DNA of 32,000 bases from NCBI GenBank assembly GCA_042852035.1, contig BAAFHK010000003.1, forward strand, positions 1 through 32,000, given 5' to 3'. The stretch's first letter is position 1; every line of letters starts with the position of its first letter. The position numbers were made by a program, and so were the translations under genes. Positions 1-31,913 of the stretch are shown piece after piece. Origin of the DNA: Candidatus Saccharimonadota bacterium (GTDB taxonomy: Bacteria > Patescibacteriota > Gracilibacteria > BD1-5 > UBA2023). Under the pieces are notes generated by a model, which saw only the letters and a program-made list of their open reading frames with translations, was not told the origin of the DNA and made no database searches.

Positions 1-403
1 GGTATTTTACAGTTGCTGCATTGAGTCCACTCGTTGCATCTGAAGCTGAGAGAGTGATGGAGATATTCGCATTTCTCCAAGCAGCAGAAGTATTATTTGC
101 GGAGATAACTGGGCTTGTTTTATCGAGCTTATATTGGTTACTGTTCCATGTCTGACTGTTTCAGGCATTGTCTGTTGCACAGAGATAGAGAGTATGTTGT
201 CCTTCTGTTGAGAGAGTTATAACATTTCCGTTTGCAAAGACCGTTCCTCATCATACACAGTCTGCATTATCCCAACGGTATTTTACAGTTGCTGCATTGA
301 GTCCACTCGTTGCATCTGAAGCTGAGAGAGTGATGGAGATATTCGCATTTCTCCAAGCAGCAGAAGTATTATTTGCGGAGATAACTGGGCTTGTTTTATC
401 GAG
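1..403 (-). repeat. 276-bp-period direct repeat inside the surface-protein CDS, with perfect 127-nt copies at 1..127 and 277..403
   Basis: Positions 1..127 and 277..403 are identical base for base (ggtattttacagttgctgcattgag...gggcttgttttatcgag). The offset of 276 nt equals 92 codons. The remaining ~149 nt of each unit are clearly diverged, and a third, more diverged copy lies near 555..650. Confidence 0.9.
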
Positions 404-931
404 ACGATATTGACCATTCCAAGTGGATTGAATTCCAGCACCATCCTGTCCACAAAGATAGAGAGTATGATCTCCATCGGTAGTAACAGAACTCGAAAAA
501 CCATTCGAATAGTCAGTTCCTGCCCAACAGTTTGAATTATCGAGTCGATATCGTGATATAGCAATATTACTTCCTCAACCATCACTCGCAAAAGCCGTGA
601 AAGCAATATTGGCATTTCTCCAAGCAGCAGAATTATTATTGGCACTCACTGACGGAGCGGTAGAATCCCATCTCCAACATCGTACCTGCGCTCATAAATC
701 TGCATCTACCTTTGTCTGACCATCTGGGTACTGCACTCAAGAGCTTCCTCCATTTCAGGCATCAGAAGTTGTGGGACCAACAGCATCAGGAGAACCATCT
801 GGACTACAATGGACGGCCCCATTGGCTACCTTGTTGATATTGTATGATCCATACCAACCAGCATGCGTATCGCTCGTAGAAATAGCGAGAGAAAGTGAAA
901 GAAGAATTCACAGAAAAGTAATTTTTTTCAT
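1..931 (-). CDS. secreted surface protein with tandem ~92-aa beta-sandwich (Ig-like) repeats; C-terminus lies beyond the window start
   Basis: ATG at 931..929 on the minus strand. The code-25 translation starts MKKITFLGILLSLSLAISTSDTHA (Sec-type signal peptide) and stays open to position 1. It holds three copies of a unit ...KTSPVISANNTSAAWRNANISITLSASDATSGLNAATVKYRWDN...HTLYLCATDNAGNSQTW..YKLD. Track ORF 283..645 is an internal fragment that ends at a TAA in a non-coding frame. Confidence 0.7.
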
Positions 932-1095: not shown

Positions 1096-1596
1096 ATGAA
1101 TAATATTATTCGAATTTCTGAATCCCCATATCAGCTTGAGTTTAGCGTTGACCTCAATGTTTTTCCTCTCTCGATATGCCTACGTGCTGTTTACACGTTC
1201 CTCGATCGTGGATATTTCTTTTTTGAAAAAGATCAAACCAACAATAAACTCATAGTGAAAACAATCTCAAAAAATGACGCAAAGTGGTCCAGCGAAAAAC
1301 TCCTGTCTGACTTAAGCGATGAGCTGATTGCAACAACACTTCGTGCGAGCCTCGAAAAAGAAAATAAGACTATTCGCGATGCCATAGTTATGAAGGCTCT
1401 ATGGTGAATGGAAGACCACTCAAGAATTCCACAAGAAGAAAAGGAACAAAAAGAAGAATCACTTATCGACTTCACTCAGGATGTTGACCAACTTCTTAAA
1501 GAGATAGAAGAAATTACTGTTGAACCAAAAGAACCAGATATACGTATAAATGTTAACGGTGTCTTTCATGCAAAAAAAGCATTTAAAAATCGATAG
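1096..1596 (+). CDS. HxsD-like protein (copy 1)
   Basis: Track ORFs 1096..1407 and 1408..1596 share one frame and are joined by TGA (Gly) at 1405..1407, giving 166 aa. It is a clear paralog of 20933..21487: both share FLDRxYFFF, WSSE, SDELxATxLRxxLExxNKTIRxxIVMxAL and a C-terminal AKxxFxxR. The xLxDxxLR...IR pattern resembles the His-Xaa-Ser system protein HxsD (LLNDYxLRE family, from memory). Confidence 0.6.
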
Positions 1597-1756
1597 TTCA
1601 CTCTATCCTCCTTCTGCAATTGAAAAATGCATAGCACTCTTTGATGGCTATGATATTTCATTCCATGAAGAATCACAGACTCTTGAGATGCCTGACGATA
1701 ATCAACTCATTTTAGAGTTTTTTAATCATGCACTTCATCTTACCCTCGAAAAATAG
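1568..1756 (+). CDS. 62-aa conserved small protein of the Hxs-like module (copy 1)
   Basis: The ATG at 1568 lies inside the 3' end of the previous CDS (+1 frame, 29-nt overlap), and the stop is TAG 1754..1756. The product is MQKKHLKIDSSLYPPSAIEKCIALFDGYDISF...LILEFFNHALHLTLEK. A paralog at 20767..20961 has the same MQKK start, the same 29-nt overlap and a similar size. Confidence 0.5.
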   Translation: MQKKHLKIDSSLYPPSAIEKCIALFDGYDISFHEESQTLEMPDDNQLILEFFNHALHLTLEK

Positions 1757-1760
1757 CATC

Positions 1761-3221
1761 ATGACTCATCAAACCCTCACCCTCGATCTCGCAAAAAACC
1801 CACATAAGGATGTTGCATATTTTCGCTTTCGAAAGGAAGAGGATGGAAAATATCTCATGACAACTGATAATGGCCAGTTCACCATGCTCAATGGGGAAGA
1901 TTTTATAACACTACTCGAAACATGACGTGTCCCTCTCGAAGTGAAATATAAAGAATTATGTGAAAAGTGATTTATAAAAAGCGTCACGAACTATACTGAT
2001 GTTGAAACTCGCAATTATGCTCAAAGAAATAGCTTTCTGAATACTGGACCAGCTCTACATATGATTATTACTACCCTACGATGTAATCATAAGTGTAAGT
2101 ACTGTCATGCTGCCGTTGCTCCAATGACAGCAAAAGAGCTCGACATGAGCGTCGAAACGGCAAAGAAGGTCGTTGACACCATATTTTATACTACCAATCC
2201 TTCTATAACTATAGAATTCCAGTGAGGTGAATCACTCGTAAATTGGGATGTAGTAACTTTTGTCGTGGAATATTCCCAAAAAAAAGCAAAAATTCATAAT
2301 AAGCAGCTCTATCTCACTCTCGTGACAAACCTCTCCCTCATGACGGAGGAAAAATTACAATATCTAGTAAAAAATAGGGTTTGAGTCTGTACCTCTATGG
2401 ATGGCGATAAGGAAACTCATAACTGGCAGAGAACCTTTAAAGATGGAGACTCCTATGAGCTAGTAAACTATTGGATAAAACGAGCAAACGCTCTCTATAA
2501 GGAACACTGATCAACATATAGAGTTTGAGCTCTCCTTACGCTTACAAAGCCAGCGTTGGCTCATTATAAAAAAATTATTGACGCTTACGTCGATCTTTGA
2601 TTGTGATCTGTTTGACTCAGATGGCTTAATCCATACGGATTTGCAGCTGCTGAAAGGGAAAAATTTTATTTCGACACGGATGAATTTATCACATTTTTTC
2701 GCGATGCGATGGACTACATCATCGAAATTAATAAAAAATGATACCGCCTTCGAGAAATGCTTTCCTGAGTATACCTGACAAAAATACTCACCTGACAAGA
2801 TCCGAATTTTATGGATATCAGATCCCCGTCTTGACCAGCAATTGGCTGCCTCGCGTACAATTATGATGGATCCGTCTATGCTTCTGATGAATCTCGGATG
2901 CTTGCAAGAATGGGAATAAACGACTTCTGCCTGACACCTATGCTTGATTCCCCTGAAGAAACATACAAGGCCATCACCGAATCACCGGTCACAAATATCC
3001 TTATTCAGACAAGCACTCTAGATTGACTTCCTGGATATAACGATCACGTATATAAACCCTATATTGGAGCTGACACTCTTTTTTCTTTTACTCAATCGTG
3101 AAATCCATACTCTATTTTTTCAAAAGATGAAAGAAATGTGATGCAATTAGCACGACTCGATTATTTATTTGAAAAAATGTGAGATGAAACTATAATGGAA
3201 ATCTTTAGAAAATGGATTTAA
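1761..3221 (+). CDS. hxsB: HxsB-like radical SAM peptide maturase (copy 1)
   Basis: ATG 1761, TAA 3219..3221, 486 aa once many in-frame TGA are read as Gly. Motifs: LRCNHKCKYCHAA (Cx3Cx2C); IEFQ-G-GESLVNW with the first Gly encoded by TGA 2223..2225; VTNLSL; CTSMDGDKETHN; WLNPYGFA; AYNYDGSVYASDESRMLARMG. There is no complete Cx2Cx5Cx3C SPASM motif. It is highly similar to 19311..20759. The HxsB assignment is from memory of the family plus the HxsD-like and His-rich peptide neighbours. Confidence 0.75.
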
Positions 3222-3235
3222 TTACTCCCTACTAT

Positions 3236-3601
3236 ATGAAGAAAAAAATCCCACAACTCAAGAAAAAGCTTCATGGATTCATTACGAATGAAGACTGATC
3301 TATTCGACGTGAATCTATGGTGAAACTCTCCGTATGATGAGCTATGCTCCTCTGATGAGCTTCTGCTCTTCCTGATTCAGCAAATGCAGGACATTCAAAT
3401 GGGTATATTTCCTGCGCTCCAACTGGAAACACTCCAGCGATTAATGCAAGTATTGGTGTAAATACCTCCATAAATCTCAATGGTCACTTTAATGGAGTTT
3501 GATCATCCACACATGCCAATTACGGACACTGAAATTATAGTACCGCATGTTGGCAAAACATTCATGGATCTCACGGAAGCTGTGGATGATGATGTTGGTA
3601 A
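3236..3601 (+). CDS. precursor peptide A1 (HxsA-like; His/Asn/Gly/Ser-rich core with Cys-rich C-terminus)
   Basis: ATG 3236 is 14 nt after the hxsB-like stop, and the stop is TAA 3599..3601. 121 aa with 9 in-frame TGA by my count. Leader: MKKKIPQLKKKLHGFITNEDGSIRRESMVKLSVGGAMLLGGASALPDSANA. Core: GHSNGYISCAPTGNTPAINASIGVNTSINLNGHFNGVGSSTHANYGHGNYSTACWQNIHGSHGSCGGGCW. The leader and core motifs (VNTS, NGH[FY]N, GHGN) recur in 15444..15944. Confidence 0.6.
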
Positions 3602-3619: not shown

Positions 3620-4585
3620 ATGAATCGATACCTCGCTCTTTTTCTATTTTTCGTTTCTCCGATAATCCTTCTCTCTTCATGTACATGAATTGGATTTAAA
3701 AGTGGGAAAGTAAGTTGGAGTGATGCTCAGAATTCCAGTACTACCTATTCTTCGAAGATTGGGTGACTCTTCAAGAAAGCTCTTGATGATCCACATACAA
3801 AACAAATTGCCGAGAGAATGTATACCGATTACTCTGCTGGGATTATTACTGAGAGTTTTTTTTATACCGCGCTTACTTACCTCAACGATAAACCATCACT
3901 TCCTTCATTTCTCGAGAACTACAAAAAAAATAAGTGAGTATTTTGAGAAGAATCTTCTGATACAGCATCGGATTATATCGGTGGATACATTTTTGCTTAT
4001 GCTTGAGTAAAGACTAGTGAATGTACGGAATACACAAATGCCCTAAGTGGAACATTTGTCGGGAAAAGAATTCATGAAGGATGCATCGATTCAACCCTTT
4101 TGTATAATGTACTGGGCGAAAAAAATGAAAAAACAATTGATATATTTAAAAAATCTTGAGATTTAAAAATTAACGAAAGCCTCTTTCGTTCTATTGCAAA
4201 AGGAGAAACAAAAGACTGTTGAAGTTGCTCCGTTATTATTGAATGAGCTGACCGAGAGAAAACATTTGGCGAGATATCAAATCTTCAAAAATCAGATTTA
4301 AAAGGAAAAACTGTTAATTTTAGCTTAAAGAATTTTAATATTCTTGCACTTAAGAGCGAAATTAAGCCAAACATGTCTGATAGGGAGAAGTTTGATCTCA
4401 CATACGATAGCTTCTTACTCTATAATGCCATTTATAAATCGGATACCTCGACATGTAAGAAGCTTCTAAATGAAACACTCTCAAGTACTTGCATAAAATA
4501 TATCGAAAAGGATCGTACTCAAAAACAAGAATATACAAATTATATTGAACCATATATCATCTACAGCTACCTCTACGAACTCTAA
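3620..4585 (+). CDS. lipoprotein, function unknown
   Basis: ATG 3620. The N-terminus MNRYLALFLFFVSPIILLSSC carries a lipobox (L-S-S-C). The frame stays open, reading TGA as Gly, through to the TAA at 4583..4585 and includes track ORF 4373..4585. 321 aa. The C-terminal part contains a C-x11-C pair (CKKLLNETLSSTC). Confidence 0.6.
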
Positions 4586-7993: not shown

Positions 7994-8980
7994 ATGGATT
8001 TTGCCTATTTTCAAGTTGTACGCATCTGTAACCAAAAATGCATCTTTTGTGCTCAACCATCGAATGGAAGAATTGAGTCGCTCAAAAAAATACAAGAAAG
8101 GATTGACTGGTATAAGGACCAATGATATGAGTGAATTATCCTCAACGGCGGAGAACCAACCCTTCATAAAGAGATTGTTAACATCATTAAGTATACCGCA
8201 CAAAAGTGAATATATTCAAAAATGATATCGAATGGGATAAATTTTTCAAATGCTGAACTTGCCAAGGCTTGTGTTGATGCCTGACTCAAGCAGATTCACA
8301 TATCATTCCACAGCTATATACCAGAAGTTGAAAATAACCTCATGAGATGAGATGTTTATGAAAAGCAGCTCAAATGACTCCTCAACATGCTTCTCCATAA
8401 AAACAAGATCGATGTCTGGGTGAATATTGTTATGAACCAGTACACAATACGTCATTTAGATAAAACTGTACTTTTTTTTCTCAAACTCTGAGTGCGAAAT
8501 TTTGTTATTAATAATCTAGAAGTCACTTGAGTATATCCAGAATATTTAGAGAAATTACTGTTTCGCTTGAAAGAAGCTGAAGAGCCCCTCAAAAAGGCAC
8601 TCCATCTTATCCGAAAATATGGAAACATCGCGCGCGTCTCGCGTATCCCCATGTGCTATCTACGATGATTTGAAGACTATTCACGAGATATCGAGTATTA
8701 TATCCTCCATACAAAAAAATATATTCATTACCTGAATGATGATAAACACCCCAAGCAATCCGATTTCGTAAGCGATGAAGTAAGTTGGCAAAGTGGTGAA
8801 GGATCGCCTACTTGAATGAGACGTTCTCGAACCGAAAATTGTAGTCATTGTGATCTTCGTCATATGTGCTCCTGATATGATCTGCTTGATTTTTTCCCAG
8901 GTGAAGACCCTCTTATTCGACAGAAAGTTGATAATGAAGAAATGCAGACTATACTGAACAACATCTTATGAAAAAAATAG
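7994..8980 (+). CDS. radical SAM enzyme, possibly HxsC-like (tandem paralog 1)
   Basis: ATG 7994 is one nt after the previous stop. Motifs: VRICNQKCIFCAQPSNG; ILNGGEPTLH; ISFHSY; C-terminal ENCSHCDLRHMCSG. Stop TAG 8978..8980, 328 aa. The CxxxCxFCAQP context recalls the CxxxCxMCSQPP of HxsC (from memory, unverified). Confidence 0.7.
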
Positions 8981-9924
8981 CATACCTTCAACTTCATAGA
9001 ATCTGCGATCAAGAGTGCGTTTTTTGTGCCCAACCCTCGAATGGATCAGTACTCGATTTCAAAGCCATAAAGAAACAAATAGATGCTTTTGTTCAAGATG
9101 GTTACTCAAAGGTTATTTTTTCTTGAGGAGAACCAAGTCTCAATAAAGATTTTTTTGAAGTTATTGCGTACGGTAAAAGTCTCGGCATCGAAATGACCAT
9201 TCTCTCAAATGGTCATCGATTTTCGGAGTATGATTTCGCAAAAAAATCCGTCGAATCATGACTTCTACAGTACCATATATCCCTCCATTCACATATATCA
9301 GATATACACGACGCCTTAGTAAAAAAACCATGATCCCTGAAACGATGTTTTCAAGCGCTTCATCATCTACTATCACTCTCTGCGCACATCACAATAAATA
9401 TAACGATTAATGCTTATAATGTATCCTATTTTGATAGGCTTATTAAAGCTATCCTCAAAGAATTCCCTTCTATTCATGGATTTATTATCAATAACCTTGA
9501 AACCTCTCAGATTCCTCGAGAGCATTATAGTGTTATAGCAAAACTTTCGGAGATAAAAAAAACCATTCCGAATACCCTTCAAATTTTAGAAAATTCTGGT
9601 AAAAAATTCCGTATAGAAAGGGTTCCTTTCTGCTATATTCGATGATACGAGCATCATTCTACCGATCTTGAGTACGTCATCGACGGGGAAGAAAAATTTC
9701 TTCACTATCTCTGAGAGTCAAGAGCGTCTCACAAGGTAAAAAAAGAAAACTACGTTCATAACTCCAAATATGGCGAATCATGCTCAGCATGTGATCTAAA
9801 ATGACTCTGTGCTGGTCAGGAAGGTCTCAATATCCACTACTTTCCCGAAGAGCTTATTCCACAGACCGTAAGTGAAGCTGAGAAAAAACAAATTATTCAA
9901 AAATTCTATGAATGTTATTGTTAA
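8968..9924 (+). CDS. radical SAM enzyme, possibly HxsC-like (tandem paralog 2)
   Basis: ATG 8968 overlaps the previous CDS by 13 nt. Motifs: HRICDQECVFCAQPSNG; IFS-G-GEPSL (first Gly is TGA); ISLHSH; ERVPFCYIRGYE (compare RIPMCYLRGFE in the paralog); SCSACDLKGLCAG. Stop TAA 9922..9924, 318 aa. Confidence 0.7.
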
Positions 9925-15443: not shown

Positions 15444-15944
15444 ATGGAAAAAAAAGGAATCATCCCAAAGTTCAAAAAGAAACTTACCGCCTTCCTTACT
15501 GAAGAAGCCGGAAGTATTCGTAGAGAAGATATCCTCACCATCGGTGCGGCTACTCTTCTCGTAGCATGAGGACTTTCAGATCAGGCAAATGCCTATCTCA
15601 CTCTTGGTGACTGTCATACTAACCATAATAATTTCGTAAGTACATCAGATGGTTATACTCATTCGAGTGGATGGGTCCATTCAAACACGACTCCTGCGCC
15701 TCTCTGTATGCATGAGAACTACACAACCCCATCTGCCTGAGGACATGGAAATGCAGTAGCGGTAAATACCTCAACTGCCTGATCTGATAATAAAATCGTA
15801 AACTGACACTATAATCAGATTCCAAGCGCTGGAGCATCACACGTAAATCGTTGACATGCGAACGTAAACCCAGTATACTATGTTGCTCACAATGACGGAT
15901 ACGTTTATCATAGCAGTCATGCGAATCATTCGGATGGTGGTTAA
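15444..15944 (+). CDS. precursor peptide A2 (HxsA-like His-Xaa-Ser-rich peptide)
   Basis: ATG 15444, TAA 15942..15944, 166 aa with 5 in-frame TGA. Leader: MEKKGIIPKFKKKLTAFLTEEAGSIRREDILTIGAATLLVAGGLSDQANA, homologous to the A1 leader. The core has 13 His, including GYTHSSGWVHSNT and YVYHSSHANHSDGG (His-Ser-Ser / His-Xaa-Ser), and shares the GGHGNAVAVNTST and NGHYN motifs with A1. Confidence 0.65.
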
Positions 15945-15964: not shown

Positions 15965-16978
15965 ATGAAAGGAAGAAATATACTCATATTAATGATTTGA
16001 GTGGCTATTTTTGGGGTTTTTTTGTTTATAAACAACGAGGACAATTGAGCCTCTTCGTTATTTTCCACGAGAAAAAATCCTTTCTTAAACTGATCTTGAA
16101 ATAACCTTACTTCTGATACTACGAGCAAGGAGATTTTAAAAAATATTTATACTGCTTCAAAGTCAAACTCTGGCAGTCAAGATTCTTTTAGTTGAAGTCT
16201 TACCCAAGTAGAAATTATCTGAACCTTGCCTCAAGGTATTACTTCAGATATGAGTGGAAGTTGATTTTTTATATCAGGATCTACCGTCTATGGAGATAGA
16301 AGTCGTGTACTCGTACTCGAAGATGGTCGTATAATCATAGGATATGAGCCTTGGCAAGCAGCAAAAAACTGGAAAGAAATACAGGCACCAGAGTGATGGT
16401 GACTCGATAAAGACATTATACCTCGAAGATTCTATTATTATACCACTTGAATGACTGAGGAAAATCTCAAGAAGGTAGCTGAGAACGTACGATTGCGGTA
16501 TAATGTAATGCACAACCTCATTCATAATACGAATCAGGATGACATCCTCGTAAAACAAGGAAAGGAGTGCCTTACGCAAATAGACAAATCTTTTGAGTAC
16601 CCAAATACTCCTCAAGATGGATTTTTTAAGATATGTAAGCCCCCTGTAACGAATGAGAAACGTTTTAGCTCGGAGAAAGACCCTGCATTTGTGAGATACG
16701 CTTTTTCACTACTTTATAAAGCATCGCAAGAAAATGATATAAAAATCTGTGATAAGATTGGCGATATCTCATTTGATGTAAAAACCTATTCGAGTCAATT
16801 TAATCTTTGACAATACTCTCTTATATGTCGATGAATCATCGACTGAGGAGGACAAAAGATTCTTGATTACGTATATTGATTCACGGTTATAAGTGGCCTT
16901 TCGAACCGATGTGAACTCTATGCTGACGAAGAGAAAATTCAGAAAATTTGTGAATCAATTACAGATACCCTGAGGTAA
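15965..16978 (+). CDS. membrane-anchored hypothetical protein
   Basis: ATG 15965 gives MKGRNILILMIGVAIFGVFLFI (N-terminal TM/signal anchor). The frame stays open with TGA = Gly through track ORF 16451..16810 to TAA 16976..16978. 337 aa. No family recognised. Confidence 0.5.
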
Positions 16979-17011: not shown

Positions 17012-18109
17012 ATGTCCACTATTCAAAGTTTCCCATACACTATTTGATACAACGATAACAAGGTATTAAATATTTATATAGAAAAATATAAGCAAATTCT
17101 CCACCATCTCGCCCAGAAGCACCTCGATAAAGACATCGCAGCTACTCCTGATATTCTCCAATTTTTATCAATTGGAGATATAGCATCAAACCTTTTATTA
17201 CTCGGGAAGCCTGAACCATGAAATGGCGCTGAGTATGCGAAGAAATTCTTAGAGAAAGAATGGGCGGAGTTTAAAATCGGTGGACTCCAAAATCTTTCGT
17301 CTGTCAAGTGATCAAAGATCCCAGGAACAAATATCCTTCTTACCAACAACGATTATACCCCAGGAGGCGTCGCGAGGATTAATCATCCAAGCCAAAAGGA
17401 TGGAGCTCAACTTACGGGATTTTCTTCGATTGAAGAAAAAGAGTGGCTTAACCTCTATGCTCAGGTTTTTGAAAAAATCCGTGAGATACATCCATGATTT
17501 TATACCGAATTAACAAGCGTCCTACAAAAAGTTGTCCCAATAGGAATATCTCGTGACTGTCATAACTCTGGATCATTCTCGGACTGTATCGGACACATAT
17601 ATATGAGCTACCCGATAGGGAATATTGAACCAGTGATTGCCGTACTTGAGGCAGTTATCCACGAGTACAATCATAATAAACTTCATATTATTATGATGTC
17701 TGATCCATTGATTCTCAACAGTGGTGAAGAAATATACTACTCTCCGTATAGGCCCGATGCGAGACACCTATATGGTATTTATGCGTGACTTCATGCTCTA
17801 TCCGCCGTTTTATATGTTATCTTTACTTGAATTCAAGAAGGCACTCTCACTTCACCAAGTAAGGACCTAATTCTGAAGTCGCTCCTCTACTTCATGAAAG
17901 ATGAGGCGTCAGTTCGGGTCCTAGAAAAATATGGGAAATTCTCCCCTCTCGGACAAGAGCTCCTCAATGAAATGAAAGCGGTACATAAGCATACCCTGGG
18001 AATTATAAAAGAGCTCCGATACGGTCATGAACTCTTAGAAGCTGCTTCTCGAGAATGCAGAAATCACTTCCTTGAAGCACAAAAAAATAACAAAAAAATC
18101 CTATACTAA
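17012..18109 (+). CDS. HExxH-motif domain protein (family of peptide-modifying, aKG-HExxH-type hydroxylase-like proteins)
   Basis: ATG 17012, TAA 18107..18109, 365 aa. The track fragments at 17280, 17603 and 17894 are mostly pieces of this gene or shadows of it. The core reads PVIAVLEAVIHEYNHNKLHIIMMSDPLILNSGEEIYYSPYRPDARHLYGIYAGLHALSAV. That is the HExxH..L...(~20)..SP.R.D.R...G pattern of the HEXXH motif domain found beside radical SAM/SPASM maturases (from memory). Confidence 0.65.
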
Positions 18110-19305
18110 AAGAAGAGCTTATCGAAAAGAGTGTAAGAATTATCAAGAAAAGCATACCACATATGTAGTGCTATATATGCTAAATTCTGCTGCATAACTA
18201 TCGTATAGAGAAATGCCATAAAAATAATATGTGCATATGGGTGATTATTATATACAATCATATACGTAGTAGTCTCATCCCTTCAGCACTTTTGAGCAAG
18301 TGCCTTTAGGAACCTTAAAGCATGTGAATCAACTGTCTTAGAGAAAACACTCTGAACTTCTTCTACCATACTATATCTCTCCTTTTCTTCGAAATCTGGT
18401 GCAAAAGTACCGATAATATGCTCTACATCAAGATTATCTCAAATCTTGATGTTTTTTATTGTTCTCGGAATTAAGTCATAACGACGAATAAATTTGGAGA
18501 ATAGATAAAGAAATCATGAAATGAGAGCCATAGTAGGAAGAGAATACTTTCCAAAGAAAAACAAATCGTAGATAAACCTATCAACTGACCGATAGTACAC
18601 AAAAAGGATAAGTATGACCGTTAGAGCTAGGATTAAGGTATAATTTACTCATTTTATTGCTGCTTTGCGAATATTCTTATTTATCAGTCGAAAAATACTC
18701 ACCACTGCAATGATCAGAGCTGGATAGAGAGGGCTTTTGGGGTCGCCTATAGAATAAAAATAGTTCACGAGTTTCTCACTGAACATCTGCAATAGACTGA
18801 ATGATAAAACAATAACGAGACTATATTGGATAATATTTAGTATCCATTCCTTTGTTGTTTTTTTCTTTACTTCATTTTTTGTATTCTTTTCCATTTTACT
18901 CGGATCGATTGCGTCTATAAATCTTGATTGGATAAGAGAAATAAGACATAAAATAACAATTGTGAAAACTGCAATATTTCCAGCAAAAGAAATATAACGT
19001 CCATCAAAAAGAAACATGGAGAGAACAATCGTATACTTTGCATCCCCTGCAGCCCATCAATTATAAAGATAGAGAAGAAATGAAACAACGAACGTAAACA
19101 AAATTGAAGTAAGGTAAAATCCCCACTGAAATCCACTAATAAAACCCAACTTTAGAGAAAGAGTGAGTAATATGGGCAACAAAAACAAGAGTGATAATAA
19201 AATGTAGTTTGGTATTACTTTAAACTTCCAATCTTTATAAACAAGAAAGAGGTTTAGAAAAAAGAATAAAGCCAGGAAAAACCAAAATGTAATCGAAAGG
19301 ATCAT
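18106..19305 (-). CDS. A24-family (prepilin-peptidase/CpaA-type) aspartic membrane protease with ~180-aa C-terminal extension
   Basis: The ATG at 19305 is 5 nt after the hxsB-like stop; an alternative TTG at 19320 would overlap it. Track pieces 19057..19320 and 18649..19017 share one frame and are joined by TGA. Motifs are VYKDWKFKVIPN (first Asp motif, D....IPN) and GWAAGDAKY (second Asp motif, G.GD.K). Reading TGA 18649..18651 as Gly extends the frame a further 181 codons without TAA or TAG to TAG 18106..18108, adding more TM segments and a soluble tail. My base indexing near 18650 and 18720 disagreed with the track by 1 nt, so I followed the track frame. Confidence 0.55.
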
Positions 19306-19310
19306 ACGAA

Positions 19311-20759
19311 TTAAAACCAAGAGCGAAATACTTTTTCGTTCTCTGGATCTTGTAATTTTTCAAAAATATAATCAAGCATAATTATCTGCATCTTATTTTT
19401 CTCATCTTTTGAAAAGTTCGAGAATATGGTCCCATACTGGGTGAAATTATAGAGTATATCTACTCCTATATAAGGTTTATAAACATGGTCATTATAACCT
19501 GGAAGACCATCAATAACCGATGATTCAAGAGCAGCTCGAGTTACGGTGCTTTGAGCCATAGCCTTCATAGTTTGATCCCCTGTTGCAAGCATTGGCGTAA
19601 GTAAGAAGTCTTCGATACCCATCCTTCCAAGCATACGAGCCTCATCACCAGCATAGACCTTTCCATCATAATTATAGGCAACTCATCCAACTGCAACTCA
19701 TGATGGAGAACGAATATCCATGAAGTTCCCATCGGCATTAAAGAATATCTTTGAGAGGTACACACTCGTTATCATTTCTCTTAATTTATAGCCCGATTTA
19801 TTAATCTCAATGACATAATCAAGTCATTTCTGGAAAAAATCAAGAAATTCAGTTGGGGTAAACTCCATACGTTCTCGTTCGACGGTAGCAAATCCATACG
19901 GATTAAGCCATCGAAATCAGATACTTCGCAGCCCAAGACTCACATACGTATCGATTATTTCTTTATATTGCTTAATACTCGTTTTCGTCCAGGTAGCAAG
20001 AGCTCCTATACTAAATGATTCTGGTGCTCCTCTGTATTTTATTTCCTCATTTATTCGTTTTATCCAGTAAGACACTGTATCGAAACTATCTCATTCTTTC
20101 CAAACTCTTTGTGCATTATGAACAAGCTTATCTCCGTCAAGAGACGTACATATCTCCACCTTATGATCCAAAAGCCATTTGAGTTTTTCTTCACTCATAA
20201 GCGTCAGATTCGATACGATACTCAGGAAAAGCTGTTTCGAAAGAGACTCTGCCTTTTGCCTAGCGTATTCAGTAATAAATTGCACCACCTCCCAATTGAC
20301 GAGAGATTCTCATCACTGAAACTCGATGGTTATACTTGGAGAGGAGCTAAAAAAAATGGTATCTACAACATTCTTTGCTGTCTCAAGAGTCATATCTAGT
20401 CATTTCGCTGTCATAGGTGCAACTGCAGCGTGGCAATATTCGCATTTATGATTGCAACGCAATGTTGTAACAATCATATGAAGCGTAGGACCATAGTAGA
20501 GAAATTTATTCTTTTCGAGGTACAGAGCAGCTAACTTTTCTTCATAGTCAGGAGTCTTATAGAAAAGTTTTTCTGTAAGTTCATCTTTTTTAGGTCAAGT
20601 AAGCTCCCCGGAGATAAATTTTTCAAAATCTCAAGAGGTGAGAAAAGAATATTTTCCGATATCATTCGTGATAAGTATATCTCAAGATTTCATTTTTTTA
20701 TAGCGAAAAAATGCTATCTCTTGGGAAAGATTCTCAATAGTTTTCAAAGTAAGACTCAT
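19311..20759 (-). CDS. hxsB: HxsB-like radical SAM peptide maturase (copy 2)
   Basis: ATG 20759, stop TAA at 19311..19313, 482 aa. It contains track pieces 19311..19634 and 20091..20288. Motifs: LRCNHKCEYCHAAVAPMTAK; IEFQGGESLVNWEVV; CTSLDGDKLVHN; WLNPYGFA; AYNYDGKVYAGDEARMLGRMG; GLPGYNDHVYKPYIG. It is collinear with 1761..3221 throughout but diverged at synonymous sites. Confidence 0.8.
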
Positions 20760-20766
20760 ATATTCC

Positions 20767-20961
20767 TTAGATTAATTTTTCATTATAAAGTGCGACACAG
20801 TAATTTGAAAATTCATCAAACAGTCATTGTGGATCCTCATCCTGAATTGAAATTCCATCTTGAATAGATTGAATATCAAAAGACTCAAATTCAGAGATTG
20901 CTTCTTCCAGAAGGGCTTGAGGATAGAAATTTTTATCGAGATTGAAATTTTTCTTTTGCAT
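20767..20961 (-). CDS. 64-aa conserved small protein of the Hxs-like module (copy 2)
   Basis: ATG 20961 lies inside the end of the HxsD-like CDS (29-nt overlap, other frame), and the stop TAA is at 20767..20769. The product MQKKNFNLDKNFYPQALLEEAISEFESFDIQS...GLFDEFSNYCVALYNEKLI is a paralog of 1568..1756. Confidence 0.5.
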
Positions 20962-21487
20962 TCTTAACTTTATTAGGATCTAACTGAGGGGTTTTCTTTG
21001 TTTGAGTTCCACTCATATCGACTTCAATTTCCTTCAAAATCCGATCTATCTCACCCTGATCAATCTTAAGCTCTGGATCATTTTCAATTTCTTTTAAGAT
21101 TTCATCAATATCCCTATCAAAGTCAATCTGTGGATTTGAATTCGAGATTTGATTTGGAACAAAATTTTGACTATCAACATACGAACCAAGAGCTCGCATA
21201 ACTATAGTTTCTCGAATCGTTTTATTATCTCTTTCAAGTTTATCACGAAGAAGGGTTGCAAGAAGTTCATCACTGTATTCAAGAGCAAACGCCTCACTAC
21301 TCCAACGTTGATTTTCTTTTGGATGAATTTGAACTAGGGTATTCTCCCCATCTCTCTTAAAAAAGAAATAGCATCGATCAAGAAACATATACGCCGCCTT
21401 CATGACGACTGCCTCTGAAAAGATTCCACCATCAATAAGAAGCTCTAGACGATTATTTTCCTGATTTTTTGAAAGAAAAGCAAACAT
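20933..21487 (-). CDS. HxsD-like protein (copy 2)
   Basis: This is an intact 184-aa ORF in the track with no internal TGA. MFAFLSKNQENNRLELLIDGGIFSEAVVMKAAYMFLDRCYFFF...WSSEAFALEYSDELLATLLRDKLERDNKTIRETIVMRAL. It is a paralog of 1096..1596. Confidence 0.65.
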   Translation of the reverse strand: MFAFLSKNQENNRLELLIDGGIFSEAVVMKAAYMFLDRCYFFFKRDGENTLVQIHPKENQRWSSEAFALEYSDELLATLLRDKLERDNKTIRETIVMRALGSYVDSQNFVPNQISNSNPQIDFDRDIDEILKEIENDPELKIDQGEIDRILKEIEVDMSGTQTKKTPQLDPNKVKNAKEKFQSR

Positions 21488-21536: not shown

Positions 21537-22529
21537 TTATTTTACGAATGATTGCTCACAGGAGATTCTAAGACTCTCGTCAACAAGTGATGAACAATCC
21601 GACTTTTTTCAGGACTTAATAATATCTGATATTCTGATTCTATCGAGACAGCTCTGTTTCATCTCTACGGCTTTAATTCTATTACAGAAATCCAATGATT
21701 GTTCTATCATCGCATTTTCAAAGAGACTTGAATCGGAAAGATCACCAATCGTAGTAAGACAGTGCGATTTGGTGTCTGGATTAACGATATTTTCACAGAT
21801 TTCAACATTCTGATTCGATTTCGCTCGAGAAAAATAGACTACATCATTACATTCTTGCTTGAGATCCTCTGTTGAAATATTTCCACAGCTTTCAGTACTC
21901 TGATTTGCAATTGCCTTCTCAAGAATTACTTTATCATTTGAAAGCTTTAAATCTGACTTGCATTGTTCTTTTGCAAGATCATTCGTGAAAGAATCACAAT
22001 CAACCTCTTCACCACTTTCTTCTCTATTATTTCTTATTTTTTCTCGAATGATTCGTATCTCAATCCCCTGAGTACATTTATCACGAGATCATGAGTTCGA
22101 AATTTTCAAACATTCATCAATTTTTCATGAAAGCTGGGCAAGGCGAAAATAAATTTGATCCCTACACTCAATAGCTCCAGTCTCTGAAAGGACATCACAC
22201 TTTGTTGGATCATTTTCTTTTAATGCCAGTGCAAGTCATGATTTCTCGATACATTCTTGCTTAAGTTCTGGTATGGATATTGTTTCGCATAGCGCAGGAT
22301 TAGCATTCAATATGGCAGAGTTTACCCTATCAATTGCTTGGGTAACCATCTGCTGTCTCTCCTCCTCAGTCATAACATGCTCCTGTCATTCTCAATCTTG
22401 TTGTTCACCACCACTGGAGAATCATGGTAACTCTCCTCAATCATCAGGAGATCGAGAGGAGTAGAGATAACCGAAGATTGCTACTCCTGCAATAAGCAGA
22501 AGAGAAATAATAGTATAGGATGTTTTCAT
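21537..22529 (-). CDS. membrane-anchored protein with eight C-x10/11-C repeats
   Basis: ATG 22529, TAA at 21537..21539, 330 aa. The N-terminal MKTSYTIISLLLIAGVAIFGYLY is a TM anchor. Eight Cys pairs follow: CETISIPELKQEC, CDVLSETGAIEC, CLKISNSGSRDKC, CDSFTNDLAKEQC, CGNISTEDLKQEC, CENIVNPDTKSHC, CNRIKAVEMKQSC and CSSLVDESLRISC. The CDS is open only with TGA = Gly. It lies 49 nt upstream of, and on the same strand as, the HxsD-like copy 2. Confidence 0.6.
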
Positions 22530-30363: not shown

Positions 30364-30696
30364 ATGAGCTTTTCTCTAGAAAGAGAGAATGCCTTTAAAA
30401 GAAGCTATACATATATTCTTTTTTTGCAAGTGAAAATGCGGTCACCAAATGAAAATATTTACCTCATTCTCTTCTCAACCTTTGTTGAATGAGTAAAAAA
30501 AACATTCGAGAATATCACCCAACTTGTCTCATCTTGAAATTGAGATAGATCATGAATAATCTACAGCATATTTCATTACATATTTGTTGATTGACCAAAA
30601 AAATTTCGAAAAAATCCAACTGCTGTATCCATTGGAAGGGGTATATTTTCACCCTTCATATTTGTCTTTAAAAAATCGCAATGAAATTCAAAATAA
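30364..30696 (+). CDS. hypothetical small protein (weak call)
   Basis: ATG 30364 to TAA 30694..30696, 110 codons, open if six TGA are read as Gly. It overlaps the following pilin-like CDS by 16 nt. I recognised no motif. An open frame of this length is unusual in AT-rich DNA but is not proof of coding. Confidence 0.25.
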
Positions 30697-31913
30697 TACC
30701 ATCAATCTTTTTAAATAAATCAACTCGTCTAAAACATTGATTTACGTTATTTGAACTCATGCTTGGAATGACAATATTTTCCATGCTTATGGTATTCACT
30801 CTTCAGGCCGTATGAAACGTTACTATAGCAAGAACCCGGAGTATGAGCAGAATTACCCTCATTGAAGAACTTTACTTCTTTTCTGAAAAGCTCGCAACAC
30901 AAATTAAAGAAGGATGAATTATAGACTACGAGGAGTACTGGAACCGACAAATGCGGGAGGCGAGCCCAAGCCCAACAGCTACATGAACAGCATCATGACA
31001 CTACATCCTTCCAACAGGATTTGGAAATTATGGTGAAGGTGGGGCGAGCCCACTTTGAACTGGATCAACAAATTACTGAAGTGGCTATTATTATTGTAAA
31101 AGTGAAAATGCCTGAAATAAAATGGGAACCAATGGTTGTATCATTGATATCTTAAATAGTCCTGGTTGAGATCAGGCGGGTGACTATCAAAGATACTGAG
31201 AGTATAAGCTTCAATTTACAGACTATAATGGTAATGCTGATAATGATAATGGCATCCCTTGAGATGAGGACGAAGAAGGAAACATTCGCTGAGATGAAGA
31301 TGATAAAGATATTGGTGATGGGCCTCTAGTAATTACTTGATCTTCTCCAGAACTCTACCTCATAAATACTCTTTCGAAAGAAAGAACATACTTCCGACTC
31401 ACTTATAAACAAGATCCAAATCACCCGAATACCTGTAATTTTACTACTTTTGGAACGGGATGTCTTGGTAATATAGAAATGCTCAAACTAAAATGACTCG
31501 ATATAGGACTTGGGCATTCATGAGGACTCAACGATGCAAACAATCCAGGCGCATTTGATTGAGATATAGACACATGGGTTTGTCATCAGGACTGGACCTG
31601 TAATGGACCTACTCTCGCAAACAATTATGGCGTTCTCCCCACTGGAAGAGACAGTGAATGGGTTCCACTATTCCCAGATTATGTAAATGTAAAACAACTT
31701 ACTTTTAGTCTCTACCCACGAAAAGATCCTTGGAAATCCTGGGCTGCAATTGACTCTTTCAGCCCTGGAGCAGTGAGCCCCTTCCTTCACCCATATGTAC
31801 GAGTTCAGATGACTATGTGACTTGCTTGGGAAAAACGAAAACTTATCAATAACGATGATCCAACGATTTCTATCTCAACCACAATTAGCCTCTCAAATAG
31901 TATAACTGAATAA
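30681..31913 (+). CDS. type IV pilin / pseudopilin-like protein with prepilin-type N-terminal cleavage/methylation signal
   Basis: ATG 30681 gives MKFKIIPSIFLNKSTRLKH-G-FTLFELMLGMTIFSMLMVFTL. This is the class III signal G|FTLxE with Glu at +5, and the invariant -1 Gly is TGA 30738..30740. I translated codon by codon to TAA 31911..31913. 410 aa, with a large globular part that includes an Asp-rich loop. Confidence 0.7.

What the first reader, a model, noticed from the sequence alone, without database searches (positions are those of the whole stretch)
3236..3388. The precursor leaders look like a hybrid of a prepilin-type cleavage site, an RR motif and an AxA signal-peptidase site
A1 begins MKKKIPQLKKKLH-G|FITNE. 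A2 begins MEKKGIIPKFKKKLT-A|FLTEE. Each has a short Lys-rich head, a small residue, then Phe at +1, Thr at +3 and Glu at +5. The genuine pilin in this window reads ...NKSTRLKH-G|FTLFE. Unlike pilins, the next ~12 residues are polar. They contain GSIRRE (a twin-arginine-like pair), followed by a Gly/Ala-rich hydrophobic stretch and ...ANA. The leader could therefore be processed twice: by the cluster-encoded A24 protease at G/A|F, and by signal peptidase (Sec or Tat-like export) at ANA. I do not know of a RiPP leader processed by a prepilin peptidase.
Basis: inference. Interest (0 to 1): 0.7.

Follow-up and report, generated by a model that had tools for sequence, protein, structure and literature searches.

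The report
HxsA3 leader with partner A24 peptidase
The segment encodes the two-part leader (a conserved N-terminal tag plus an ordinary export signal) of a radical-SAM-modified His-rich peptide of the known HxsA3 family; the pilin-like and twin-arginine looks are largely superficial, but a prepilin-peptidase-like membrane protease turns out to be a conserved, so far uncurated partner of this family in many bacterial and archaeal lineages.

Summary
A1 (3236-3601) and A2 (15444-15944) begin with a Lys-rich head, G/A-F-x-T-x-E, GSIRRE, a hydrophobic stretch and ANA.

Both are divergent members of the curated HxsA3 precursor family of His-Xaa-Ser radical-SAM systems (306 relatives). Family-wide, F(+1), E(+5), G(+7) and P(-9) are near-invariant.
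- **Prepilin site:** the residue before Phe is not Gly-restricted (G/A/S about 61%, N/D 28%). The hydrophobic segment starts about 13 residues later, and no precursor matches the prepilin motif model.
- **Twin arginine:** "RR" is lineage-specific; the family has KK, with R at the second position in 2 of 149. It is the basic n-region of a Sec-type signal, not a Tat motif.
- **AxA:** a small-x-small site directly before the His-rich core is conserved.

A distinct A24 (GxGD) peptidase subfamily with both catalytic Asp invariant accompanies HxsA3 genes in CPR bacteria, DPANN archaea, Elusimicrobia, Omnitrophota and cultured Clostridium. In C. ljungdahlii the operon is hxsA3-hxsD-hxsD_rel-A24-hxsC-hxsB.

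The protease probably processes the leader, but the cleavage site is unknown. Verdict: partly supported; a new variant of a known system.

The parts
3236..3601 (+). A1 precursor gene (121 aa, code 25; 9 of its 20 Gly codons are TGA), a divergent HxsA3-type His-rich peptide
   Evidence: Translation. NCBIfam HxsA3 NF038309 matches residues 5-54 (E 2.8e-05, 23.8 bits, below the cutoff of 65). It is NCBI protein HHAS10_09680. Codon usage.
3236..3274 (+). Lys-rich head MKKKIPQLKKKLH (residues 1-13); part of the family-conserved block K-K-x-[FIL]-P-K-[ILF]-K-K-K-[LI]
   Evidence: Column statistics over 149 relatives: P(-9) 143, K(-6) 123, K(-5) 141, L/I(-3) 138.
3275..3292 (+). G14-F15-I-T-N-E19, the prepilin look-alike. 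F(+1) and E(+5) are family-invariant; the preceding residue is not
   Evidence: F 148/149 and E 146/149; -1 is W25 (TGA read as Trp), S24, G23, N21, D21, A19, K8. No N_methyl hit.
3296..3298 (+). TGA codon encoding the family-invariant Gly at +7 (G21)
   Evidence: The paralogue A2 uses GGA at the same column (15510-15512).
3305..3310 (+). R24-R25, the basic pair of the signal-peptide n-region (K-K in most relatives); not a conserved twin-arginine motif
   Evidence: +11 is K125/R18 and +12 is K98/E29/R2. In species-representative genomes +12 is never R.
3317..3370 (+). Gly/Ala-rich hydrophobic h-region MVKLSVGGAMLLGGASAL (residues 28-45)
   Evidence: Hydropathy. In relatives the best 12-residue hydrophobic window starts on average 16 residues after F.
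3371..3388 (+). c-region PDSANA with an A-x-A signal-peptidase-I-type site, immediately before the core (GHSNG...)
   Evidence: A small-x-small site lies 0-1 residue before the first His in 61 of 92 relatives. A-x-A occurs in 46/96, against 31.8 (maximum 41) in shuffles.
3389..3598 (+). A1 core peptide (His/Gly/Asn/Ser-rich, ending HGSHGSCGGGCW)
   Evidence: aligned with relatives.
15444..15944 (+). A2 precursor gene (166 aa). Its leader is 15444-15593 (A16|F17, R26-R27, ANA 48-50)
   Evidence: HxsA3 hit E 7.6e-11, 41.7 bits. It is HHAS10_09780.
18106..19305 (-). A24-family (GxGD) aspartyl peptidase-like membrane protein, 399 aa: catalytic D25 (YKDW..KVIPN) and D88 (AAGDAKY), a large inserted region, and a C-terminal HPYAHIIF block
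   Evidence: Pfam PF01478 27.3 bits against a cutoff of 26.5. D25/N33/G87/D88/K90 are invariant in 14 diverse homologues and in 35 HMM hits. 11 of 14 hit PF01478 and 3 hit PF06819.
1728..3221 (+). HxsB radical SAM/SPASM maturase (copy 1), directly upstream of A1
   Evidence: TIGR03978 446.7 bits against a cutoff of 370.
19311..20759 (-). HxsB paralogue (copy 2), adjacent to the A24-like gene
   Evidence: Translation; Radical_SAM and Fer4_12; syntenic in L001.
1096..1596 (+). HxsD-like protein (copy 1)
   Evidence: TIGR03976 47 bits against a cutoff of 50, E 2.5e-12.
20933..21487 (-). HxsD-like protein (copy 2)
   Evidence: Its orthologue in L001 carries Pfam HxsD PF27806.
20767..20961 (-). Small HxsD-related protein (64 aa); a second copy lies at 1550-1756 (+)
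   Evidence: NF038315 HxsD_rel E 1.3e-06, 28.4 bits against a cutoff of 41.
7994..9924 (+). Two HxsC-like radical SAM genes (7994-8980 and 8968-9924)
   Evidence: TIGR03977 83 bits and HxsC4 80 bits, both below their cutoffs; Radical_SAM.
30681..31913 (+). Genuine type IV pilin-like gene (…LKHG|FTLFE followed directly by a hydrophobic helix), used for comparison
   Evidence: Pfam N_methyl 24.9 bits against a cutoff of 21.2, at residues 17-39.

Best explanation
Region 3236-3388 encodes the bipartite leader of an HxsA3-type precursor of a His-Xaa-Ser (Hxs) radical-SAM system, in a UGA=Gly Gracilibacteria-lineage genome.

Module 1 (about residues 1-27) is a family-specific, Lys-rich cytoplasmic tag: K-K-x-F-P-K-I-K-K-K-L-x-x-F-L-T-[DE]-E-x-G-x-I. 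Module 2 is an ordinary Sec-type signal peptide. It has a basic n-region (the 'RR', K-K in most relatives), a hydrophobic h-region, and a small-x-small (ANA) site directly before the His-rich core.

Inferred pathway: the cytoplasmic radical-SAM enzymes (HxsB, HxsC-like proteins and other tailoring enzymes, with HxsD) modify the core while module 1 serves as the recognition or handling tag. The peptide is then inserted and exported through Sec with its N-terminus inside. The cluster's dedicated A24-type (GxGD) membrane aspartyl protease acts on module 1 at the cytoplasmic face of the membrane. Signal peptidase I cuts at AxA to release the core outside.

Shown: family membership, conservation of each motif, non-conservation of Gly(-1) and of RR, integrity of the A24 catalytic residues, and the A24/HxsA3 gene linkage across phyla. 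Inferred: that the A24-like enzyme cuts the HxsA3 leader, where it cuts (x|F is one candidate, requiring non-canonical P1 tolerance), the order of steps, and the use of Sec.
For: Family and leader homology:
- HxsB passes its NCBIfam cutoff, and A1 and A2 match the HxsA3 leader region.
- An exhaustive HMMER search found 306 relatives, aligned from their own N-termini. 61 of 63 sampled hit HxsA3.
- Leader columns: P-9 143, K-5 141, F+1 148, E+5 146, G+7 144 of 149.

Sec-type module:
- K/R at +11, a hydrophobic window about 16 residues after F, and a small-x-small site 0-1 residue before the first His in 61 of 92. A-x-A is enriched over shuffles.

A24 linkage:
- The peptidase is syntenic in L001.
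- A24-like genes with both Asp motifs occur in L008, L004/L005, L006, L129 and L132. That is 7 of 8 informative loci with about 10 kb of context.
- 25 of 91 species-representative 8-kb blocks carry one, plus 5 more blocks; most are 0.5-4 kb away on the same strand.
- Catalytic D/D are invariant. 11 of 14 hit Pfam A24.
- C. ljungdahlii has the compact operon hxsA3-hxsD-hxsD_rel-A24-hxsC-hxsB, in which the precursor is the only evidently exported product.
- Reverse test: of 64 metagenomic loci of at least 5 kb anchored on the A24-like signature, 27 show Hxs components and 50 show a CxxxCxxC ORF. With at least 3 kb on both sides the figures are 8 of 12 and 11 of 12.

Context from experiment: E. 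coli HxsA is periplasmic and undergoes a non-canonical N-terminal cleavage whose protease is unknown (PMC13128918).
Against: - No biochemical data exist for any HxsA3 system.
- All characterised A24 peptidases, to my knowledge, need Gly (or Ala/Ser in archaea) at P1 and a hydrophobic helix right after the site. Here -1 is often Asp or Asn (7 of 26 Asp in A24-containing loci), and the helix starts about 13 residues later.
- In metagenomic locus L208 the A24-like gene sits next to three canonical pilin genes as well as an rSAM cluster, so it could be a pilin peptidase in some genomes.
- Small N-terminally anchored membrane proteins next to the precursors are alternative substrates.
- L130 has no A24-like gene in its 13 kb.
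- The co-occurrence estimates rest on truncated 8-kb blocks.
- A1 and A2 score below the curated HxsA3 cutoff.
Confidence: 0.6

Rival explanations
1. The leader carries a canonical prepilin (class III) cleavage site, cut by the cluster A24 peptidase exactly at G14|F15 (A1) and A16|F17 (A2). It also carries a Tat-like RR export motif and a second cleavage by signal peptidase at ANA.
For: In this genome the resemblance is close: A1 has ...KKLHG|FITNE and the pilin has ...RLKHG|FTLFE. Only A1, A2 and the pilin fit the pattern in the window. The closest relatives keep a small residue (A, A, S) at -1. Family-wide, 61% have G/A/S at -1 and 89% have G/A/S/N/D. The A24-like gene is conserved in the clusters.
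Against: - The -1 residue is Asp, Asn or Lys in about a third of relatives, including A24-containing loci and all the Clostridium operons.
- The conservation pattern (F+1 and E+5 invariant, -1 variable) is the reverse of what, to my knowledge, PilD-type recognition needs.
- There is no hydrophobic helix directly after the site, and no precursor hits N_methyl.
- RR is K-K in the family, with R at +12 in 2 of 149.
- The residues after RR are acidic or polar (E-S-M, E-D-I) rather than x-F-L-K.
- Gracilibacteria are not among the CPR classes in which a freshwater survey found Tat (PMC9166423).
Confidence: 0.2
2. Module 1 is only a RiPP-type recognition sequence, bound by an N-terminal recognition domain of HxsB and/or by HxsD. 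The leader is removed by signal peptidase I alone. The A24-like protein has another job: processing pilins or the small membrane-anchored proteins encoded beside the precursors, or acting like a signal-peptide peptidase that clears the long leader remnant from the membrane after the SPase I cut.
For: - The conserved block extends far beyond a cleavage site (-12 to +15), as expected for a binding motif.
- The -1 residue preference (S, D, N, G, T) matches helix N-cap preferences (own knowledge).
- HxsB has about 100 residues before its radical-SAM core.
- L208 shows the A24-like gene beside canonical pilins.
- Small TM-anchored proteins flank the precursors.
- To my knowledge, GxGD proteases of the related A22 family cut type II-oriented signal-peptide remnants.
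Against: In the minimal Clostridium operon the A24-like gene lies between hxsD_rel and hxsC, with no pilin gene in the block. The linkage holds in archaea and in bacteria of several phyla. This subfamily has its own signature and an inserted domain, distinct from generic A24 models (no NCBIfam hit). The remnant-clearing variant still makes the HxsA3 leader the substrate, so it overlaps with the best explanation.
Confidence: 0.3
3. The hydrophobic stretch is a permanent membrane anchor rather than a cleaved signal. The mature product stays tethered, pilin-like, after cytoplasmic-side trimming by the A24-like enzyme, and displays the His-rich core on the cell surface.
For: The N-in topology, basic residues before the helix, and an A24 partner resemble pilin biogenesis. 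E. coli HxsA acts at the envelope (PMC13128918).
Against: A small-x-small motif is conserved exactly at the helix/core junction. The h-region is short (about 15-19 residues) and rich in Gly, Ala and Ser, which is typical of cleaved signals.
Confidence: 0.1

Closest known systems
HxsA3 precursors of His-Xaa-Ser (Hxs) radical-SAM systems (NCBIfam NF038309, with HxsB TIGR03978, HxsC TIGR03977, HxsD TIGR03976, HxsD_rel NF038315)
   Same: The leader is homologous to the N-terminal part of the HxsA3 model. An HxsB above cutoff lies directly upstream. HxsD, HxsD_rel and HxsC-like genes are present. The core is His-rich with some H-x-S units.
   Different: A1 and A2 score below the curated HxsA3 cutoff. 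Their cores are longer and poorer in regular HxS repeats. There are two cassettes plus many extra tailoring genes: a HemN-like rSAM, a PEP-utilising enzyme, methyltransferases and an aKG-HExxH hydroxylase. The organism uses UGA=Gly. The associated A24-like peptidase is not part of the curated model set.
HXS anti-phage system of E. coli (HxsABCD; Nat Commun 2026, PMC13128918)
   Same: A radical-SAM-matured, exported His-x-Ser effector. Its N-terminal processing is not simple signal-peptide removal and depends on the maturases.
   Different: [quoted passage not shown] The system has four genes and no A24 peptidase. A defence role for HxsA3 systems is untested, and PADLOC has no match.
Type IV prepilins / class III signal peptides and their A24 peptidases (PilD, TadV/CpaA, archaeal FlaK/PibD/EppA)
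   Same: A short basic head, Phe at +1 and Glu at +5 in the precursors. The cluster enzyme has the two catalytic Asp motifs, D...IPN and GD.K, and the Pfam A24 domain.
   Different: The -1 residue is not Gly-restricted. About 12 polar residues separate the site from the hydrophobic segment. There is no N_methyl match. The enzyme forms its own subfamily, with a roughly 200-residue insertion that includes a conserved soluble domain (LKPGM...) and no N-terminal methyltransferase region.
Twin-arginine (Tat) signal peptides (S/T-R-R-x-F-L-K)
   Same: S-I-R-R-E followed by a moderately hydrophobic Gly/Ala-rich h-region and A-x-A in A1 and A2. Export after cytoplasmic modification would suit Tat.
   Different: RR is replaced by KK in homologous leaders. 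The residues after RR are polar. There is no Tat-signal model hit. Tat is not reported for Gracilibacteria in PMC9166423.
Signal-peptide peptidase / presenilin-type GxGD proteases (family A22), as a mechanistic analogy
   Same: Polytopic GxGD aspartyl proteases that cut N-in (type II) oriented hydrophobic peptides such as signal-peptide remnants (own knowledge). The HxsA3 leader has that orientation.
   Different: No sequence membership was tested beyond A24. The analogy is a lead only.

Membership tests
His-Xaa-Ser (Hxs) system | HxsB radical SAM/SPASM maturase (TIGR03978) at or above the curated cutoff | tested here: met
   Gene 1728-3221 scores 446.7 bits against a cutoff of 370.
His-Xaa-Ser (Hxs) system | HxsD (TIGR03976 / Pfam PF27806) present | tested here: inconclusive
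   47 bits against a cutoff of 50, E 2.5e-12. The L001 orthologue of the second copy carries PF27806.
His-Xaa-Ser (Hxs) system | HxsC radical SAM maturase (TIGR03977) at or above cutoff | tested here: not met
   The best window gene scores 83 bits against a cutoff of 267.9, so it is HxsC-like only. The C. ljungdahlii homologue passes with 315 bits.
HxsA3 precursor family (NF038309) | Score at or above the curated cutoff (65 bits) | tested here: not met
   A1 scores 23.8 bits and A2 41.7 bits. Homology is still clear: the E-values are significant, and 61 of 63 relatives found with an A1/A2-derived profile hit HxsA3, best 4e-35.
HxsA3 precursor family (NF038309) | Conserved N-terminal leader followed by a hydrophobic segment and a His-rich or HxS core | tested here: met
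Type IV prepilin / class III signal peptide | Invariant Gly (Ala/Ser tolerated in some systems) at -1 of the cleavage site | tested here: not met
   A1 has Gly and A2 has Ala. Family-wide, -1 is W(TGA)25, S24, G23, N21, D21, A19, K8. In loci with the A24-like gene it is S8, D7, A3, G2, N2, T2.
Type IV prepilin / class III signal peptide | Hydrophobic helix of about 20 residues starting at +1, with Glu at +5 inside it; match to the N_methyl model (PF07963) | tested here: not met
   Glu at +5 is present (146/149), but +4 to +13 are polar or charged and the hydrophobic window starts about 16 residues after F. None of 63 precursors hits N_methyl at E<=10, whereas the window's pilin does.
Tat signal peptide | Conserved twin arginine in an S/T-R-R-x-F-L-K context | tested here: not met
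   RR occurs only in the window's close relatives. The family has K125/R18 at +11 and K98/E29/R2 at +12. The following residues are E-S-M and E-D-I. There is no Tat-signal model hit.
Tat signal peptide | TatA/TatC encoded in the genome | not testable with these tools
   Only 32 kb of the 256-kb contig is available. The literature lists Tat in other CPR classes and not in Gracilibacteria (PMC9166423).
Sec-type (signal peptidase I) signal peptide | Basic n-region, h-region of about 12-20 residues, small residues at -3 and -1 of the c-region | tested here: met
   A1 has RR, an 18-residue h-region and ANA. The family has -3 A40/V29/S10 and -1 A53/S22/G17, located 0-1 residue before the first His in 61 of 92. 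No dedicated predictor such as SignalP was available.
Peptidase family A24 (for gene 18106-19305) | Pfam PF01478 at or above the gathering score, and two catalytic Asp (the second in a G-x-G-D-type motif) | tested here: met
   27.3 bits against 26.5. D25 and D88 are invariant in 14 and in 35 homologues. 11 of 14 homologues hit PF01478. A PDB sequence search found no FlaK match, and the AF2 model was too poor to test the fold.

The most novel reading that the evidence does not exclude
A dedicated prepilin-peptidase-like (A24, GxGD) intramembrane aspartyl protease is the leader peptidase of HxsA3 precursors. It would cut a non-pilin, radical-SAM-modified secreted peptide at or near the conserved x|F-L-T-x-E-E-G motif, with a relaxed P1 specificity. 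As far as I could find, this would be the first RiPP-like leader removed by an A24 enzyme. It would define a six-component Hxs variant spread across CPR bacteria, DPANN archaea, Elusimicrobia, Omnitrophota and Clostridia.
Probability: 0.4. Interest if true: 0.75.

Novelty: new variant of a known kind. Interest (0 to 1): 0.62.

Why it matters
Hxs systems were recently shown in E. coli to be anti-phage systems. Their exported effector needs a non-canonical N-terminal cleavage, and the protease responsible is unknown (PMC13128918).

The HxsA3 branch carries its own membrane aspartyl protease inside the cassette. That gives a concrete and testable candidate for leader processing, and it would widen the known substrate range of prepilin-type peptidases beyond pilins and pseudopilins.

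The system occurs in cultured Clostridium species, including C. ljungdahlii, for which (to my knowledge) genetic tools exist, so the test is feasible. It is also one of few elaborate peptide-modification clusters shared between ultra-small CPR bacteria and DPANN archaea.

For annotation, the result warns against calling Tat or prepilin signals from short motifs. It also shows that the A24-like gene is an uncurated component of these systems.

Tried and rejected
- **Table-11 ORF calling:** fragments every gene. I replaced it with code 25.
- **First word-indexed searches:** these found only 5 precursors and 3 A24-like proteins. The exhaustive HMMER search was needed.
- **The search for related loci with alignments A5, A6 and A7:** I used hand-made degenerate DNA patterns instead. 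Those return blocks of about 8 kb that truncate neighbourhoods, so the co-occurrence rates are lower bounds.
- **PDB sequence and profile searches with the A24-like protein:** only spurious weak hits, and no FlaK.
- **AlphaFold2 of the A24-like protein from a 3-sequence alignment:** mean pLDDT 48, pTM 0.36. This is too poor for fold comparison, so I did not run fold search.
- **Correlation of the -1 residue with A24 presence:** no enrichment of Gly where the peptidase is present.
- **Gly(+7) as an alternative canonical cleavage site:** considered and rejected, because it is preceded by acidic residues and followed by K-I-T-K-K-D, unlike any known A24 site.
- **PADLOC:** no Hxs-specific model, only weak viperin-like hits for HxsB.
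- **Literature:** no paper mentions HxsA3, and none links RiPP leaders to prepilin peptidases. The searchable library is limited to open-access papers and bioRxiv.
Full report
**1. The observation**

The window is recoded. Table 11 gives 8 ORFs of at least 100 aa, whereas reading TGA as sense gives 58. Under code 25 the finding's coordinates (3236-3388) are exactly the first 51 codons of a 121-aa ORF:
- A1 (3236-3601): MKKKIPQLKKKLHGFITNEDGSIRRESMVKLSVGGAMLLGGASALPDSANA|GHSNG...
- A2 (15444-15944): MEKKGIIPKFKKKLTAFLTEEAGSIRREDILTIGAATLLVAGGLSDQANA|YLT...
- The pilin (30681-31913)...NKSTRLKHGFTLFE.

TGA encodes Gly rather than Trp. The family-invariant Gly at +7 (numbering Phe as +1) is TGA in A1 (3296-3298) and GGA in A2. 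Among 396 Met-starts in the window, only A1, A2 and the pilin fit 'basic head, small residue, F, E at +5', against 0.7 expected by shuffling. So the description is accurate. The only correction is that Thr is at +3 in A1 and A2 but at +2 in the pilin.

The source is a 'Candidatus Altimarinota bacterium' (Gracilibacteria lineage) contig of 256 kb. A1 is HHAS10_09680, A2 is HHAS10_09780, and the A24-like protein is HHAS10_09810.

**2. What the genes are**

The neighbourhood is a double His-Xaa-Ser (Hxs) radical-SAM cassette.
- HxsB (1728-3221) scores 446.7 bits against a cutoff of 370.
- HxsD-like genes lie at 1096-1596 and 20933-21487, with small HxsD-related ORFs beside them.
- A second HxsB lies at 19311-20759, and there are several HxsC-like and other radical-SAM genes.
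- Further tailoring genes include a HemN-like enzyme, a PEP-utilising enzyme, a double methyltransferase and an aKG-HExxH hydroxylase.

A1 and A2 both match the N-terminal (leader) part of NCBIfam HxsA3 (NF038309), below its cutoff. An exhaustive HMMER search with a profile of five precursors found 306 significant relatives, nearly all aligned from their own N-terminus. 61 of 63 sampled relatives hit HxsA3, best E 4e-35. The leader is therefore the HxsA3 family leader, not an invention of this genome.

**3. Motif by motif**

Over 149 anchored relatives the conserved block runs from -12 to +15:

| Position | Residues (of 149) |
|---|---|
| -9 | P 143 |
| -6 / -5 | K 123 / K 141 |
| -3 | L/I 138 |
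| -1 | W25 (TGA mis-read), S24, G23, N21, D21, A19, K8 |
| +1 | F 148 |
| +2 | L 130 |
| +3 | T/S 115 |
| +4 | D/E 128 |
| +5 | E 146 |
| +7 | G 144 (including 27 W from TGA) |
| +9 | I 126 |
| +11 | K125 / R18 |
| +12 | K98 / E29 / R2 |

*The -1 position.* Phe(+1) and Glu(+5) are real and invariant. The one position that characterised A24 peptidases depend on (Gly at P1, from my own knowledge of PilD, FlaK and PibD) is the least conserved.

*The 'RR'.* It occupies +11/+12. The second Arg occurs in 2 of 149 relatives, and never in 96 precursors from species-representative genomes.

*The export signal.* After +13 comes a hydrophobic stretch (the best 12-residue window starts about 16 residues after Phe) and then a small-x-small site. 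Position -3 is A40/V29/S10 and -1 is A53/S22/G17. The site lies 0-1 residue before the first His in 61 of 92 precursors. Exact A-x-A occurs in 46 of 96, against 31.8 (maximum 41) in composition-matched shuffles.

*Model matches.* None of 63 precursors hits Pfam N_methyl or a Tat-signal model even at E<=10, while the window's pilin does hit N_methyl. A freshwater CPR survey reports Tat in Microgenomatia, Paceibacteria and Saccharimonadia but does not list Gracilibacteria (PMC9166423).

*Conclusion.* The leader is a family-specific N-terminal tag followed by a Sec-type signal. The twin arginine is a lineage-specific K-to-R variant of the n-region. The prepilin look is only partial.

**4.

The window's gene 18106-19305 (-) just passes Pfam A24 (27.3 against 26.5 bits) and has D25 (YKDW..KVIPN) and D88 (AAGDAKY). 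I tested whether such a gene accompanies HxsA3 precursors elsewhere.

*Loci with about 10 kb of context.*

| Locus | A24-like gene |
|---|---|
| L001 | Present, syntenic with the window |
| L008 | Present, adjacent to the precursor; Pfam 29.8 bits |
| L004/L005 | Present; motifs intact, Pfam 17.8 bits (sub-threshold) |
| L006 | Present; Pfam A24 at the cluster edge |
| L129 | Present |
| L132 | Present, in the operon hxsD-small-A24-rSAM-HxsB-small-HxsA3 |
| L130 | None in its 13 kb |

*Species-representative genomes.* A degenerate DNA pattern of the leader returned 120 blocks of about 8 kb, containing 96 true precursors in 91 loci. These span Gracilibacteria, Peribacteria, Saccharibacteria and other CPR groups; Woese-, Aenigm-, Nano-, Micr- and Iainarchaeota; Elusimicrobia; Omnitrophota; and Clostridia. 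An iterated HMM of the A24-like N-terminal domain found the gene in 25 of the 91 loci, plus 5 further blocks. It usually lies 0.5-4 kb away on the same strand. Both aspartates are invariant: SYxD[IF]KxGKIxN and W[ST]AGDxKL. 11 of 14 diverse members hit PF01478, and 3 also hit the archaeal A24 C-terminal domain PF06819.

*Cultured Clostridium.* In C. ljungdahlii ERI-2 the operon is hxsA3-hxsD-hxsD_rel-A24-hxsC-hxsB. The precursor scores 103 bits on HxsA3 and HxsC scores 315 bits on its model. The A24-like protein has no NCBIfam or PADLOC model.

*Reverse test.* A pattern for W[ST]AGDAKLF in metagenome contigs gave 117 confirmed A24-likes. Of the 64 loci of at least 5 kb, 27 show an HxsA3 leader, HxsD or HxsB, and 50 show a CxxxCxxC ORF. 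With at least 3 kb on both sides the figures are 8 of 12 and 11 of 12. One 'negative', L161, is simply a truncated rSAM cluster.

The linkage is far above what one or two A24 genes per genome would give by chance. That baseline is a rough expectation from my own knowledge, not a measured control.

**5. What this does and does not show**

It shows that an A24-type GxGD protease subfamily is a conserved component of HxsA3 systems. It does not show the substrate or the cleavage site.

In loci that carry the peptidase, the residue before Phe is S8, D7, A3, G2, N2, T2, V1, R1, and it is Asp in all the Clostridium operons. So if the enzyme cuts at x|F, it does so with a P1 tolerance unknown for the family. 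Alternatively it cuts elsewhere, or it clears the leader remnant after signal peptidase I.

The -1 preference for S/D/N/G/T also fits a helix N-cap, and the length of the conserved block fits a recognition sequence for HxsB or HxsD. These are inferences.

Two observations keep a rival alive. L208 has the A24-like gene between an rSAM cluster and three canonical pilin genes. Small N-terminally anchored proteins also sit beside the precursors.

**6. Relation to what is known**

Hxs systems are curated in NCBIfam. The E. coli HxsABCD system was recently shown to be an anti-phage system whose periplasmic effector HxsA needs an HxsBCD-dependent, non-canonical N-terminal cleavage (PMC13128918). That four-gene system has a plain signal peptide and no A24 gene.

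I found no paper mentioning HxsA3, and none linking a RiPP-type leader to a prepilin peptidase.

I therefore file the finding as a new variant of a known kind. The leader itself belongs to a known family. The RR/Tat and canonical prepilin readings are not supported. The A24 partnership is real and apparently undescribed.

**7. Verdict**

- Observation: confirmed.
- Interpretation: partly supported.
- Best explanation (confidence 0.6): a bipartite HxsA3 leader, made of a recognition or handling tag plus a Sec-type signal with an AxA site, processed with the help of a dedicated A24-like membrane protease at an undetermined position.
- Literal G/A|F plus Tat model: about 0.2.
- Interest: 0.62. 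The probability that the A24-like enzyme is truly the leader peptidase is about 0.4, which would merit about 0.75.

Noticed in passing
window 3296-3298 versus 15510-15512: Direct evidence for UGA=Gly (code 25). The Gly that is invariant in standard-code homologues is TGA in A1 and GGA in its paralogue A2. TGA is the commonest Gly codon in 12 long genes of the window (153 TGA against 101 GGA).
   Followed up: yes
L100 (Clostridium ljungdahlii ERI-2, NZ_LITT01000008.1 48001-56000); also L103, L116, L037, L110: Cultured Clostridia (C. ljungdahlii, C. drakei, C. thailandense, Anaerotruncus sp. MC2020, Jingyaoa shaoxingensis) carry a compact hxsA3-hxsD-hxsD_rel-A24-hxsC-hxsB operon. This makes them usable experimental models for the system.
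   Followed up: partly
L011, L013, L018, L028, L034, L045, L046, L055, L065, L081, L121 and others: The same leader and the same A24-like subfamily occur in DPANN archaea (Woese-, Aenigm-, Nano-, Micr- and Iainarchaeota) as well as in CPR bacteria. This suggests horizontal exchange of the cassette between ultra-small bacteria and archaea. Three A24-likes also hit the archaeal A24 C-terminal domain PF06819.
   Followed up: partly
L012, L023, L125 (also L114): Some proteins with the HxsA3-type leader and signal have Cys/Gly-rich cores (for example GCGCSCGCGCSCGCGC) instead of His-rich ones. The same leader may therefore serve more than one class of core peptide.
   Followed up: no
L113 (precursor of 328 aa): An HxsA3-type leader is fused to a poly-Gly stretch followed by ...CFAAGTMITMADRSKKPIEEVKIGDLVLGYD..., which looks like a Hint/intein-type domain.
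   Followed up: no
L208 3023-5769: An A24-like gene of this subfamily lies directly between a radical-SAM cluster and three canonical type IV pilin-like genes (…QRG|VTLIELL, …EQG|FGLMEV, …EQG|FTLIELL). In some CPR genomes the enzyme may therefore also, or instead, serve pilins.
   Followed up: partly
window 18106-19305 (residues about 280-345); consensus in alignment A7: The A24-like proteins carry a conserved soluble insertion (motif LKPGM...L[ST]xxE) between transmembrane segments. It is absent from ordinary A24 peptidases. Its role is unknown; leader binding is one possibility.
   Followed up: partly
window 3620-4585, 15965-16978, 21537-22529; L004 10385-11209; L006 9377-10150: Cys-rich proteins with an N-terminal membrane anchor or lipoprotein-like signal recur next to the precursors. 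There is no family match and their function is unknown.
   Followed up: no
window 1-931 (-): A truncated secreted protein with near-identical tandem domains of about 95 aa (…TSPVISANNTSAAWRNANISITLSASDATSGLNAATVKY…); probably a surface repeat protein.
   Followed up: no
L031, L047, L066, L070, L073, L076, L092, L093, L095, L108: The only false positives of the leader DNA pattern were about 180-250-aa proteins in Clostridia, which I take from memory (no family search was run) to be Cas5-like. None of these blocks contained the A24-like gene, which gives a small incidental negative control.
   Followed up: partly
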